From a virus (Duplodnaviria > Heunggongvirae > Uroviricota > Caudoviricetes), in the IMG/VR virus record IMGVR_UViG_2563366935_000009: DNA of 5,809 nucleotides. The stretch is one strand, 5' to 3'. The translations under genes were made by a program, and so were the position numbers. Below the pieces are notes generated by a model. That model did not search any database, was not told the DNA's origin, and saw only the letters and a program-made list of their open reading frames with translations. This document shows, piece by piece, positions 475 through 5,809 of this stretch. The stretch's first letter is position 1; each line of letters opens with the position of its first letter.

Positions 475-503
475 TGCTCTTTCTGCCCCTCAGTTCGAGG
501 GGC
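475..503 (+). promoter_or_regulatory. Candidate nutL site: boxA-like TGCTCTTT (475-482) followed by a boxB-like hairpin (485-503)
   Basis: TGCTCTTT matches the boxA consensus (rrn-type TGCTCTTT, lambda CGCTCTTA). The hairpin is GCCCCTC-AGTTC-GAGGGGC (7-bp stem, 5-nt loop) with no downstream T-tract, so it is not a terminator. It lies 56 bp upstream of the N-like ATG. The boxA-boxB spacing (2 nt) is shorter than in lambda. Confidence 0.4.
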
Positions 504-558
504 CAGAAACCACTTTGCAATCACTATCAATTCCAAAGTTGTTTCATCGGAGGTCAAC

Positions 559-858
559 ATGACAGTAGTCATTACATATCTGGCTGACGATAACGCCAGA
601 AATCGCCGCAGAGCACGCAGACAGGCTCAACGTGAACAGGCGATGCAAGAACAGCGACTGGCGCGAAAAATTGCGCTAAAGCTCTCTGGTTGCGTCAGAG
701 CGGATAAAGCAGCATCACTCGGAATCCTTCGCTGCAAGAAGGCAGATGAAGTCGAGAGTAAACAGAATCGTATTTACTACCGCAAGCCACGCAGTGAAAT
801 GGGTGTGACTTGTGTTGGTCGCCAGAAAATGAAATTAGGCAGCAAACCACTTATTTGA
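559..858 (+). CDS. N: N-like transcription antitermination protein (99 aa)
   Basis: RBS GGAGG at 549-553, then ATG 559. There is an N-terminal arginine-rich motif (NARNRRRARRQAQREQ). The C-terminus RIYYRKPRSEMGVTCVGRQKMKLGSKPLI closely parallels the lambda N C-terminus as I recall it (RTWYSKPGERGITCSGRQKIKGKSIPLI). The track ORF 466..858 is an upstream extension with no RBS. Confidence 0.75.
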   Translation: MTVVITYLADDNARNRRRARRQAQREQAMQEQRLARKIALKLSGCVRADKAASLGILRCKKADEVESKQNRIYYRKPRSEMGVTCVGRQKMKLGSKPLI

Positions 859-1441: not shown

Positions 1442-1467
1442 GCCCTCCAGTGTGAGGGCTTTTTTAT
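1442..1467 (+). terminator. Rho-independent terminator (tL-like), first of a tandem pair
   Basis: GCCCTC (1442-1447), loop CAGTGT, GAGGGC (1454-1459), followed by TTTTTTAT. Confidence 0.65.
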
Positions 1468-4750: not shown

Positions 4751-5034
4751 TGGTCTCCTTCGCGAAATATACGATTATTGACTGGATAGCATTCATTCAG
4801 GTTTTGCTCATCTGGTTTTATATGGCTTACAGGAGTGGACAGTGGATTGTCAGTGTAGCCTGTAGCAATGGATGGCGTTGGTGGAACCGAAAGAATAAAA
4901 AAGCGCTGGCCTTGGCTTCGTTTTACGAAGCATTCAATCTTAACAGTCTTCAGCCTGGTTCTGTCGTTGTAGTCACCACTCAAAGCGGCATGACGATACA
5001 AATTCACAAGCCAAAGGAGGAAGGTCGTGGCTAA
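4750..5034 (+). CDS. Small predicted single-pass membrane protein (94 aa)
   Basis: AGGAGG at 4737-4742, ATG 4750 overlapping the upstream stop (TGATG). Hydrophobic segment YTIIDWIAFIQVLLIWFYMAY, followed by basic RWWNRKNKK. The 3' end overlaps the next gene by 8 nt. Confidence 0.55.
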   Translation: MVSFAKYTIIDWIAFIQVLLIWFYMAYRSGQWIVSVACSNGWRWWNRKNKKALALASFYEAFNLNSLQPGSVVVVTTQSGMTIQIHKPKEEGRG

Positions 5035-5311
5035 CCTGCAACTTGCCGTTAAAGGTGAATACTTCGATGCCATGATTCGCGGAGAGAAAACGGAAGAGTA
5101 TCGCCTGTGTAATGACTACTGGAATAAGCGAATTATGTTCCGCGAGTATGACCGCCTGATTATCACAAAGGGATATCCGAAGCGCGACGATTCCAGCCGC
5201 AGAATTGACGTCCCGTATGACGGATATGAAATCAAGACAATCACACATCCGCACTTCGGCGATAAACCGGTAAAGGTGTTCGCTATAAAGGTGAATATCG
5301 ACAATGAATGA
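5027..5311 (+). CDS. ASCH/PUA-like fold protein (94 aa), tentative (DUF3850-like)
   Basis: AAGGAGG at 5014-5020, then GTG 5027. The N-terminal pattern LQLAVKGEYFDAMIRGEKTEEYRL ... YDRLIITKGY resembles the beta-barrel signature of ASCH-type domains (from memory of HELKI.PEYFEAV.SGKKTFEIR ... GD.L.L). Confidence 0.5.
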   Translation: MANLQLAVKGEYFDAMIRGEKTEEYRLCNDYWNKRIMFREYDRLIITKGYPKRDDSSRRIDVPYDGYEIKTITHPHFGDKPVKVFAIKVNIDNE

Positions 5312-5315
5312 TAAT

Positions 5316-5342
5316 CCTCGCACTCGCGGGGATTTCTTTTAT
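5316..5342 (+). terminator. Rho-independent terminator, first of a tandem pair downstream of the ASCH-like gene
   Basis: CCTCGC (5316-5321), ACTC loop, GCGGGG (5326-5331), followed by ATTTCTTTTAT. Confidence 0.5.
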
Positions 5343-5347
5343 CTGAA

Positions 5348-5370
5348 CTCGCTACGGCGGGTTTTGTTTT
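5348..5370 (+). terminator. Second terminator-like hairpin with a UNCG-type loop
   Basis: CTCGC (5348-5352), TACG loop, GCGGG (5357-5361), followed by TTTTGTTTT. Confidence 0.5.
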
Positions 5371-5383
5371 ATGGAGATGATAA

Positions 5384-5551
5384 ATGCACTTCCGAGTCAC
5401 AGGTGAATGGAATGGAGAGCCATTCAACAGAGTTATCGAAGCAGAGAACATCAACGACTGCTATGACCACTGGATGCTGTGGGCGCAGATAGCACATGCA
5501 GACGTAACTAATATTCGAATTGAAGAACTGAAAGAACACCAAGCCGCCTGA
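5384..5551 (+). CDS. Small hypothetical protein (55 aa), not in the supplied ORF track
   Basis: GGAG at 5373-5376, 7-nt spacer, ATG 5384. The product is MHFRVTGEWNGEPFNRVIEAENINDCYDHWMLWAQIAHADVTNIRIEELKEHQAA. The stop TGA 5549-5551 sits in the loop of the downstream terminator. Confidence 0.45.
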   Translation: MHFRVTGEWNGEPFNRVIEAENINDCYDHWMLWAQIAHADVTNIRIEELKEHQAA

Positions 5552-5566
5552 TGGCGGTTTTTTATT
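5541..5566 (+). terminator. Rho-independent terminator immediately upstream of xis
   Basis: CCGCC (5544-5548), TGAT loop, GGCGG (5553-5557), followed by TTTTTTATT. Confidence 0.65.
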
Positions 5567-5608
5567 GCCTGATTTGCAGGTTCGATTCCCTATTCGGAGA
5601 TAGCACTC

Positions 5609-5809
5609 ATGCAACACGAACTACAACCTGATTCACTGGTTGATTTGAAATTCATCATGGCCGATACTGGCTTCGGTAAAACCTTCATCTATGACCGGAT
5701 TAAGTCCGGCGACCTGCCAAAAGCCAAAGTTATCCACGGGCGAGCAAGATGGTTATATCGTGACCATTGTGAATTCAAAAATAAGCTCTTAAGCCGCGCC
5801 AATGGGTAA
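5609..5809 (+). CDS. xis: AlpA-family excisionase / DNA-binding protein (66 aa)
   Basis: GGAGA at 5596-5600, ATG 5609, stop TAA 5807-5809. The winged-helix pattern TGFGKTFIYDRIKSGDLPKAKVIHGRARWLYRDHCEF matches the AlpA/Xis family motif (TG.S...IY ... G.FP.P.K.G.R...W...D...W). It sits at the distal end of the early-left operon, where xis-int is expected. Confidence 0.7.
   Translation: MQHELQPDSLVDLKFIMADTGFGKTFIYDRIKSGDLPKAKVIHGRARWLYRDHCEFKNKLLSRANG

What the first reader, a model, noticed from the sequence alone, without database searches (positions are those of the whole stretch)
5316..5566. Unannotated 55-aa ORF insulated by tandem terminators upstream and a terminator over its stop codon
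Two hairpin-plus-T-tract elements (5316-5342 and 5348-5370, with ACUC and UACG loops) sit directly before a good RBS and ATG at 5384. The 55-aa frame ends in the loop of a third terminator (5541-5566), just before xis. The supplied ORF track missed this ORF. Such insulation suggests a separately regulated small gene, or a structured RNA region, at the boundary between the delayed-early genes and the xis-int module.
Basis: seen in the sequence. Interest (0 to 1): 0.47.

Follow-up and report, generated by a model that had tools for sequence, protein, structure and literature searches.

The report
Phage lambda orf55 gene between terminators
This is the well-known small gene orf55 of phage lambda and its relatives, flanked by transcription terminators that were already catalogued, so the sighting is correct but ordinary; only the protein's function is still unknown.

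Summary
Two hairpin-plus-T-tract elements (5313-5344, 5345-5374) precede a GGAG ribosome-binding site and the ATG at 5384. A 55-codon frame ends with its TGA in the loop of a third terminator (5541-5570), 38 nt before a TorI-type excisionase gene.

None of this is new. The ORF is phage lambda orf55 (lambdap35, 98% identical), 434 'ORF55', PHROG 676 and RefSeq WP_000545737.1. Hairpin 1 is annotated 'tL4' in the 434 and HK022 GenBank records. Hairpin 3 is annotated as a terminator in HK140 and occupies the same position as 434 t'I.

The frame is a real protein gene:
- It is intact in 75 of 77 loci sampled without regard to coding content, with pN/pS 0.24.
- dN/dS is about 0.1 against Klebsiella-type copies.
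- Same-length homologues exist down to 38% identity.
- The AlphaFold model is confident (pLDDT 89, beta-beta-alpha-beta).

There is no promoter between terminators and gene. The operon starts with an N-like antiterminator and a nut-like site. The terminators are therefore best read as gates in the antiterminated early-left operon, not as insulation of a separately regulated gene.

The protein's function is unknown. The published T7 Gp2-like idea is weakly supported.

Verdict: already known, low interest.

The parts
5313..5344 (+). Intrinsic terminator 1 (= 'tL4' of the 434 and HK022 records): stem AATCCTCGC/GCGGGGATT, loop ACTC, T tract TCTTTTATCT
   Evidence: -13.7 kcal/mol, z -4.5. Annotated tL4 at the homologous position in X51962 and M60848. 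Identical in lambda. At least five different stems precede the same T tract in other phages.
5345..5374 (+). Intrinsic terminator 2, directly abutting terminator 1 and resembling it (possible tandem duplicate): stem GAACTCGC/GCGGGTTT, loop TACG, T tract TGTTTTAT
   Evidence: -11.0 kcal/mol, z -4.1. Present in all 77 sampled loci. The main polymorphism, G/A at the partner of U, switches U.G to U-A. Similarity to terminator 1 was reached by 0 of 2000 shuffles.
5373..5376 (+). Ribosome-binding site GGAG, 7 nt before the start codon, overlapping the end of the T tract of terminator 2
   Evidence: Read directly. Annotated as a ribosome-binding site in the 434 record OL657226.
5384..5551 (+). orf55 coding sequence (55 aa, acidic; predicted beta-beta-alpha-beta fold); homologue of lambda lambdap35 / 434 ORF55 / PHROG 676
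   Evidence: Intact in 75 of 77 loci with pN/pS 0.24. dN/dS 0.08-0.12 against Klebsiella-type copies. Distant same-length homologues. AlphaFold pLDDT 89.
5541..5570 (+). Intrinsic terminator 3, overlapping the last three codons and the stop codon (TGA in the loop). It occupies the position of t'I just upstream of xis in lambda-type phages.
   Evidence: -13.0 kcal/mol. Annotated as a rho-independent terminator in HK140. The lambda copy shares its T tract and downstream sequence with 434 t'I.
5574..5589 (+). 16-nt copy of the T-arm segment of tRNA gene argW (TTGCAGGTTCGATTCC), at the start of the xis (torI) upstream module. It marks the right mosaic boundary of the orf55 cassette.
   Evidence: Also upstream of torI in E. 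coli K-12 KplE1, which lacks orf55.
5609..5809 (+). TorI-type excisionase (recombination directionality factor) gene, the next gene of the operon
   Evidence: RefSeq annotation torI. Annotated as excisionase in HF4s, Kapi1 and N7. PHROG 66, E 2.7e-8.
5027..5311 (+). Upstream neighbour, an ASCH-domain gene; its stop codon lies just before terminator 1
   Evidence: PHROG 625.
475..858 (+). Start of the same operon: nut-like site (boxA-like TGCTCTTTC plus hairpin GCCCCTC-AGTTC-GAGGGGC, about 475-503) and an N-like antiterminator gene with an arginine-rich motif (559-858)
   Evidence: hairpin, z -3.6. (Pfam N_peptide, E 0.0016, below the family cut-off). CUS-3 annotates an N gene in the same operon. 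The nut assignment is an inference from consensus.

Best explanation
The region is the conserved lambdoid 'tL4 - orf55 - terminator' cassette. It is the last accessory gene of the early-left (pL) operon, here in a CUS-3/P22-like prophage of E. coli.

Transcription starts at pL, passes a nut-like site and an N-like antiterminator gene, and runs co-directionally through about 5 kb of accessory genes.

RNA polymerase that has not been modified by the antiterminator stops at the two tandem intrinsic terminators before orf55. Any that escapes stops at the third terminator over the orf55 stop codon. N-modified polymerase reads through all three. As a result, orf55 and then the excisionase gene are expressed only as delayed-early genes after induction or infection. 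In a lysogen, stray transcription cannot reach xis.

orf55 is translated from its own GGAG/ATG into a 55-aa acidic beta-beta-alpha-beta protein. Its most likely role is as a small binder or inhibitor of a host protein, contributing to the host-directed effects of the exo-xis region. Its target is unknown.

Shown here: the structures, the coding status, the homology, the synteny, and the absence of a promoter-like site. Inferred: actual termination, read-through by N, and the protein's activity.
For: Identity:
- 98% protein identity to lambda lambdap35, and the whole 250-nt block aligns with lambda, 434, HK022, HK140 and HF4s.
- 434 record: 'ORF55' and 't-L4'. HK022 record: 'tL4 terminator'. 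HK140: terminator over the stop codon.
- The tL3 fragment used in CRIM plasmids maps to lambda 31255-31285, upstream in the operon, so this hairpin is the next terminator in line.

Coding:
- 75 of 77 loci anchored only on the ribosome-binding site keep a 55-aa frame, with pN/pS 0.24.
- dN/dS is 0.08-0.12, with 27-31 of 43-48 differences at third positions, against Klebsiella-type copies.
- The HK022 1-nt deletion is rescued by an upstream in-frame ATG.
- Homologues at 38-54% identity are 51-57 aa long.
- The AlphaFold model has pLDDT 89.

Terminators:
- They fold well.
- Pairing is kept in 91% of cells against at most 54% when partners are slid.
- Alternative stems with the same T tract occur in other phages.

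Operon logic:
- All genes are co-directional and no promoter-like site is found.
- An N-like protein and a nut-like hairpin lie at the start.
- Lambda's pL operon shows the same series of hairpins.

Synteny: the gene always lies just before xis/int modules of at least three different families.

Literature: orf55 is listed as the last exo-xis gene (PMC3824215, PMC8614690, PMC9239242).
Against: - No experimental data on termination or read-through at these sites could be retrieved. The classic papers are not in the library.
- Formal covariation is weak because the copies are too similar: only 2 pairs have changes on both sides.
- The N assignment rests on a sub-threshold Pfam hit plus an arginine-rich motif.
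- The promoter scan is a simple consensus scan and could miss a weak or activator-dependent promoter.
- Some phages lack hairpin 1 (8 of 77 loci) or both upstream hairpins (Kapi1). The upstream gate is therefore dispensable.
- In Klebsiella-type copies the hairpins are degenerate.
Confidence: 0.85

Rival explanations
1. The cassette is an autonomous 'moron'. It would be a separately regulated gene with its own promoter, insulated from the operon by terminators on both sides and expressed, for example, in the lysogen.
For: - The cassette is a mosaic unit. Homology to lambda, 434 and HK022 begins at or within hairpin 1 and ends right after the T tract of hairpin 3, with at least five different contexts on each side.
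- A terminator at the 3' end is typical of morons.
Against: - No sigma-70-like promoter is found in the window.
- The T tract of hairpin 2 ends 9 nt before the ATG and overlaps the GGAG site, so there is no room for a promoter downstream of the terminators.
- Any promoter upstream of them would be terminated.
Confidence: 0.05
2. The conserved element is an RNA (an sRNA, or a processed or regulatory structure spanning 5310-5570), and the 55-codon frame is incidental.
For: - Three stable hairpins lie within 260 nt.
- The region is highly conserved at the nucleotide level in thousands of E. coli genomes.
Against: - Substitutions concentrate at third codon positions, with dN/dS about 0.1.
- The frame is intact in 97% of an unbiased sample.
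- Protein homologues at 38-54% identity keep the same length.
- The predicted fold is confident.
- Rfam has no match at gathering score, and only sub-threshold chance-level matches.
Confidence: 0.03
3. The hairpins act mainly after read-through rather than as gates. They would serve as processing or stability elements that set the relative amounts of orf55 and xis message, for example as 3'-end protection of upstream message or as RNase III targets, by analogy with retroregulation at sib.
For: - In antiterminated transcripts the hairpins are still present in the RNA.
- Hairpin 3 overlaps the stop codon, so translating ribosomes would melt it.
- The position right before xis is conserved across different xis families.
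Against: - The hairpins have the canonical anatomy of intrinsic terminators (short G+C stem, tetraloop, U tract) rather than long RNase III-type duplexes.
- They are annotated as terminators in four records.
- No data here address RNA stability.
Confidence: 0.07

Closest known systems
Phage lambda orf55 (lambdap35, NP_597778) with its flanking hairpins, between ea8.5 and xis
   Same: - The protein is 98% identical.
- Both upstream hairpins, the ribosome-binding site and the terminator over the stop codon align base for base.
- It holds the same place as the last gene before xis in the pL operon.
   Different: - The upstream neighbour is an ASCH gene instead of ea8.5.
- The downstream excisionase is TorI-type, with attP lying between xis and int, instead of lambda Xis.
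- The host phage is P22-like rather than lambda-like.
Phage 434 ORF55 / t-L4 / t'-I (GenBank M60848) and HK022 tL4 (X51962)
   Same: Same ORF and same first hairpin, explicitly annotated as ORF55 and tL4.
   Different: - 434 and HK022 carry an extra gene (ORF114) inserted in the T tract of the orf55 terminator, followed by a second hairpin (t'I).
- The 434 hairpin 1 has a variant stem.
- HK022 has a 1-nt deletion after the start codon, compensated by an upstream ATG.
T7 Gp2, the small acidic inhibitor of host RNA polymerase (proposed analogue in PMC8614690)
   Same: - Similar size, net negative charge and beta-beta-alpha-beta topology.
   Different: - No sequence homology.
- Of the two arginines critical in Gp2, one is Asn in Orf55. 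The other (R45) is not conserved in distant family members.
- No binding data exist.
Morons of lambdoid phages (promoter-gene-terminator insertions)
   Same: A short mosaic cassette with its own terminator, inserted between conserved neighbours.
   Different: No promoter of its own. It is preceded, not followed, by extra terminators and depends on operon read-through.

Membership tests
Lambda Orf55 family (PHROG 676) | Significant full-length sequence similarity to lambda lambdap35 / 434 ORF55 | tested here: met
   98% identity to lambda over 55 of 55 residues. PHROG 676, E 3.7e-40 over 1-55 of 55.
Lambda Orf55 family (PHROG 676) | Small size (about 55 aa) and position as the last early-left gene before the excision/integration module | tested here: met
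   55 aa. xis follows after 57 nt here. The same synteny holds in lambda, HF4s, Kapi1 and the Klebsiella-type loci.
Lambda Orf55 family (PHROG 676) | Evidence that the frame is translated and under protein-level selection | tested here: met
   pN/pS 0.24 in an unbiased sample, and dN/dS about 0.1 between lineages. Direct translation evidence was not obtainable.
Intrinsic (Rho-independent) terminators | G+C-rich stem-loop immediately followed by a U-rich tract, on the transcribed strand | tested here: met
   Three sites on the + strand, with 8-9 pairs, tetraloops and 5-7 T in the next 8-10 nt.
Intrinsic (Rho-independent) terminators | Conservation of pairing across relatives | tested here: inconclusive
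   91% of cells are paired, against at most 54% for slid partners, but only 2 pairs have changes on both sides. Non-homologous replacement stems each fold on their own.
Intrinsic (Rho-independent) terminators | Measured termination of transcription | not testable with these tools
   Only database annotations are available (tL4, t'I, 'rho-independent terminator').
N/nut-antiterminated pL operon of lambdoid phages | N-type antiterminator with an arginine-rich motif encoded as the first gene, preceded by a boxA/boxB nut site | tested here: inconclusive
   - The protein at 559-858 has the motif NARNRRRARRQAQ.
- Pfam N_peptide gives E 0.0016, 19.4 bits, below the cut-off of 27.9.
- A boxA-like TGCTCTTTC plus a 7-bp hairpin lies at about 475-503.
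- CUS-3 annotates N.
N/nut-antiterminated pL operon of lambdoid phages | Read-through of the downstream terminators depends on N | not testable with these tools
   Inferred from established lambda biology only.
T7 Gp2-like RNA polymerase inhibitors | Specific structural similarity to Gp2 | tested here: inconclusive
T7 Gp2-like RNA polymerase inhibitors | Conserved arginine pair needed for binding the beta' jaw. The equivalents named in PMC8614690 are N43 and R45. | tested here: not met
   Position 43 is Asn. Position 45 is Arg only in close relatives and is V/E/E/N/H/D/D/E in the distant homologues.
Morons | Own promoter upstream of the gene | tested here: not met
   The scan finds 0 promoter-like sites in the window. 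The terminator T tract abuts the ribosome-binding site.

The most novel reading that the evidence does not exclude
Orf55 is a small acidic inhibitor that targets a host machine, either RNA polymerase as modelled in PMC8614690 or the replication-initiation or nucleoid proteins implicated for the exo-xis region.

Its invariable placement immediately upstream of unrelated excisionase families, behind a double terminator, reflects a functional coupling. Its dose would be tied to the commitment to excise, and the conserved E-A-E-D-x-x-D patch would be the binding surface.
Probability: 0.12. Interest if true: 0.45.

Novelty: already known. Interest (0 to 1): 0.1.

Why it matters
It matters little as a discovery. 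The gene and its terminators are long-catalogued parts of the lambda early-left operon, present in about two thirds of complete E. coli genomes.

The remaining value is practical:
- orf55 is one of the few lambda genes with no assigned function. It was not even testable in the CRISPRi essentiality screen, for lack of PAM sites (PMC10695390).
- The data here show it is under purifying selection, has a confident fold and a conserved acidic patch, and always sits before the excision module. That makes it a reasonable target for a pull-down or deletion study.
- The terminator T tracts coincide with mosaic junctions, a tidy illustration of how lambdoid accessory cassettes are exchanged.

Tried and rejected
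Searches that gave nothing for the 55-aa protein or the region:
- Pfam, NCBIfam and PADLOC: no family.
- Profile search of PDB sequences: nothing below E 0.28.
- Rfam on the region at permissive E-value and on the whole window at gathering score: nothing credible.

A biased sample:
- The first sample of related loci was ranked by protein identity and therefore biased towards synonymous variants.
- I discarded it for selection analysis and re-sampled with a DNA pattern on the ribosome-binding site.

Covariation and duplication tests:
- The formal covariation count on hairpins 1 and 2 was not decisive.
- A tandem-duplication origin of hairpins 1 and 2 is suggested by alignment. It cannot be separated from convergence of two terminators.

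Literature:
- The lambda review, the lambda ribosome-profiling paper and the CRIM plasmid paper are not held.
- The position of tL3 was instead recovered from plasmid files in the supplement of PMC6883643.
- A literal sequence search of papers found nothing.

Ideas rejected:
- That E. coli K-12 ypdJ is an orf55 remnant. It is unrelated.
- That the CUS-3 'attR core' marks the prophage end before xis. The true core is after xis.

Full report
**What is in the sequence**

On the + strand, the ASCH-domain gene ends at 5311. Then follow:
- Hairpin 1: AATCCTCGC-ACTC-GCGGGGATT at 5313-5334, followed by TCTTTTATCT.
- Hairpin 2, immediately after: GAACTCGC-TACG-GCGGGTTT at 5345-5364, followed by TGTTTTATGG.
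- GGAG at 5373-5376 and the ATG at 5384.
- A 55-codon frame ending in TGA at 5549-5551.
- Hairpin 3: AAGCCGCC-TGAT-GGCGGTTT at 5541-5560, followed by TTTATTGCCT, with the stop codon in its loop.

The hairpins fold at -13.7, -11.0 and -13.0 kcal/mol, with z-scores of -4.5, -4.1 and -3.1 against shuffles. The window has 10 terminator-like sites against 6.0 +/- 2.2 expected, and three of the best lie in these 260 nt. The next gene, 5609-5809, is a TorI-type excisionase.

**What it is**

A 371-nt query around the ORF matches 3463 of 5426 complete E. coli genomes and 385 phage records.

In RefSeq the frame is annotated as WP_000545737.1, between an ASCH-domain gene and torI. It is the same gene as:
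- lambda lambdap35 (NP_597778, between ea8.5 and xis);
- 'ORF55' of the 1990-era phage 434 record M60848;
- a CDS noted in HK022 as 'undocumented homolog present in lambda';
- HK140_031;
- PHROG 676, function unknown.

The alignment of the window with lambda, 434, HK022, HK140 and HF4s shows that both upstream hairpins, the ribosome-binding site, the ORF and the terminator over the stop codon are shared nearly base for base.

Hairpin 1 is annotated 'tL4 terminator' in HK022 (X51962) and 't-L4' in 434. Hairpin 3 is annotated 'rho-independent terminator' in HK140.

The 'tL3' fragment used in CRIM plasmids contains the hairpin GGCTGGGTATTTCCCGGCC (supplement of PMC6883643). That hairpin maps to lambda 31255-31285, inside orf60a. 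The name tL4 for the next strong hairpin downstream is therefore coherent.

In lambda, hairpin 3 is followed by TTTTCTTGCGTGTAATTGCGGAGACTTTGCG-ATG(xis). In 434 exactly this T tract and downstream sequence follow a different stem, which the record calls t'-I. Hairpin 3 of lambda is thus the positional equivalent of t'I. From memory, the paper cited in the newer 434 record (PMID 6305007) is Benedik, Mascarenhas and Campbell 1983, on the integrase promoter and t'I terminator of lambda and 434. I could not read it.

**Is the frame a protein gene?**

My first sample of relatives was ranked by protein identity and so was biased. I re-sampled IMG/VR with a 21-nt pattern covering only the T tract, ribosome-binding site and start codon.

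Results from the 77 usable loci:
- 75 have an intact 55-aa frame. One has a nonsense codon and one a frameshift.
- 49 distinct intact sequences give 11, 10 and 19 polymorphic sites at codon positions 1, 2 and 3.
- pN/pS is 0.24.

Against Klebsiella-type copies (75% protein identity), 27-31 of 43-48 nucleotide differences are at third positions. Synonymous sites are near saturation and dN/dS is 0.08-0.12.

HK022 has a 1-nt deletion right after the ATG. The frame is restored from an ATG 13 nt upstream, giving an annotated 59-aa product.

An exhaustive HMMER search finds further homologues at 38-54% identity, all 51-57 aa long. The conserved residues are F3, T6, W9, F14, E19, E21, D22, D25, W33 and A39.

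AlphaFold2 on a 17-sequence alignment gives pLDDT 89, with strands 2-9, 12-19 and 41-49 and a helix at 23-36.

This is a protein gene, not merely an RNA element. Rfam finds nothing at gathering score, and only chance-level matches at permissive thresholds.

**The hairpins across relatives**

Hairpin 2:
- It is present in all 77 loci.
- The main polymorphism (39 against 29 loci) is G/A opposite a U, switching U.G to U-A.

Hairpin 1:
- It lies on a mosaic junction. Most loci carry the lambda stem.
- Other upstream modules bring different stems (CCTCG/CGAGG, ACCCGC/GCGGGT, CCGC/GCGG, ACCTCG/CGAGGT) in front of the same T tract.
- Eight loci have no hairpin 1, one has only a weak stem, and Kapi1 lacks both upstream hairpins.

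Hairpin 3:
- It keeps its GCCGCC/GGCGG core.
- Its 5' arm encodes the C-terminal Ala-Ala.
- Variation at residues 53-54 weakens the base of the stem.

A formal count gives 91% paired cells against at most 54% for slid partners, but only two pairs with changes on both sides. Covariation as such is not decisive.

In Klebsiella-type copies the upstream hairpin is reduced to 3-4 pairs. The downstream one is kept or weakened, still with the stop codon in the loop.

Homology to lambda, 434 and HK022 ends within a few bases after the T tract of hairpin 3, with at least five different downstream contexts. The cassette from hairpin 1 to hairpin 3 is therefore an exchangeable unit bounded by terminators.

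**How it most likely works**

- All genes in the window run in the same direction.
- The consensus scan finds no promoter-like site.
- The T tract of hairpin 2 ends 9 nt before the ATG and overlaps the GGAG site. orf55 therefore has no room for its own promoter after the terminators.
- At the start of the window there is a boxA-like TGCTCTTTC followed by a 7-bp hairpin (about 475-503).
- Next comes a 99-aa protein with an arginine-rich motif that weakly matches Pfam N_peptide (E 0.0016, below the cut-off).
- CUS-3 annotates an N gene in this operon.
- Lambda's own pL operon shows the same chain of hairpins, two of which (near 33.9 and 33.5 kb) recur in the window at 1442-1459 and 1480-1499.

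By established lambda biology, N-modified polymerase reads through such terminators and unmodified polymerase stops.

The best-supported reading is therefore that the three hairpins are gates. They make orf55 and, beyond it, xis strictly dependent on antiterminated pL transcription, and they shield xis from stray transcription in the lysogen. They do not insulate an independently regulated gene. Termination and read-through themselves are inferred, not shown.

**The protein**

Orf55 is acidic: 10 Asp/Glu against 4 Lys/Arg, read from the sequence.

PMC8614690 modelled lambda Orf55, noted similarity to phi29 p56, the Gram-positive RNA polymerase epsilon subunit and T7 Gp2, and speculated that it modulates RNA polymerase.

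Of the two Gp2-critical arginines, the proposed equivalents are N43 and R45. R45 is not conserved in the distant homologues. Membership in the Gp2 family is therefore not supported, although a small acidic binder of a host protein remains the most plausible kind of function.

Other papers list orf55 as the last gene of the exo-xis region. They cite earlier work implicating orf73, ea22, ea8.5 and orf55 in inhibition of host replication initiation (PMC3824215; PMC9239242). lambdap35 was not tested in the lambda CRISPRi screen (PMC10695390).

**Verdict**

The interpretation of 'insulation for separate regulation' is not supported, and the feature is already known in every structural respect. Only the biochemical role of Orf55 is open.

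Noticed in passing
window 5574-5589; L004 6632-6650; L236 1-32: The CUS-3 GenBank record ends at a 16-nt 'attR core' (TTGCAGGTTCGATTCC) between orf55 and xis. This is only a repeat of the argW T-arm segment. The recombining core CTGCAGGGGACACCATT lies about 90 nt after the TorI-type xis, as in Kapi1, HF4s and K-12 pawZ. The record therefore probably omits the phage's own excisionase. The 16-mer is also upstream of torI in K-12 KplE1 and sits exactly at the mosaic junction with the orf55 cassette.
   Followed up: partly
window 475-503 and 559-858: A nut-like site (boxA-like TGCTCTTTC plus hairpin GCCCCTC-AGTTC-GAGGGGC) precedes a 99-aa protein with the arginine-rich motif NARNRRRARRQAQ. RefSeq calls the protein hypothetical. 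It gives a sub-threshold match to Pfam N_peptide.
   Followed up: partly
window 1442-1459 and 1480-1499: Two further terminator-like hairpins (GCCCTCCAGTGTGAGGGC and AACGCTTCACTCGAGGCGTT) are the same sequences as hairpins in lambda's pL operon near 33.9 kb and 33.5 kb. The terminator series of the operon is therefore shared between a P22-like and a lambda-like phage.
   Followed up: no
L002 536-1000 (phage 434) compared with L005 (lambda): In 434 and HK022 the ORF114 gene sits inside the T tract of the orf55 terminator. It ends with its own, different hairpin (t'I), which reuses the lambda T tract and downstream sequence. This looks like a cassette insertion that carried its own terminator stem.
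   Followed up: partly
L001 / L010 (HK022), equivalent to window 5371-5388: HK022 has a 1-nt deletion right after the orf55 ATG. The reading frame is kept by an ATG 13 nt upstream, inside the T tract region, giving a 59-aa product.
   Followed up: yes
window 5313-5374: Hairpins 1 and 2 resemble each other (CTCGC stem arm, GCGGG arm, T-rich tail ending in TTTTAT). They may be a tandem duplication; 0 of 2000 shuffles align as well.
   Followed up: partly
L097-L113 (genome-contig hits): Copies 98% identical to lambda orf55 occur in assemblies labelled Shewanella, Pseudomonas, Bradyrhizobium, Oceanobacillus, Kitasatospora and others. They often lie on low-coverage contigs, four of them about 48.4-48.5 kb long. 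This is almost certainly lambda DNA contamination of those assemblies.
   Followed up: no
L114 764-1650: A 48%-identical orf55 homologue lies about 490 nt downstream of an N-like gene (MTIVMTILADDNARNRRRAKR...) in a metagenome bin labelled Bacillales. The bin is probably mis-assigned. In that locus the homologue is not adjacent to an obvious xis.
   Followed up: no
L237 2595-2810 (E. coli K-12 KplE1): K-12 has ypdJ, not orf55, upstream of torI. ypdJ is unrelated to Orf55, but the sequence before torI keeps a degenerate copy of the 434 t'I region.
   Followed up: partly
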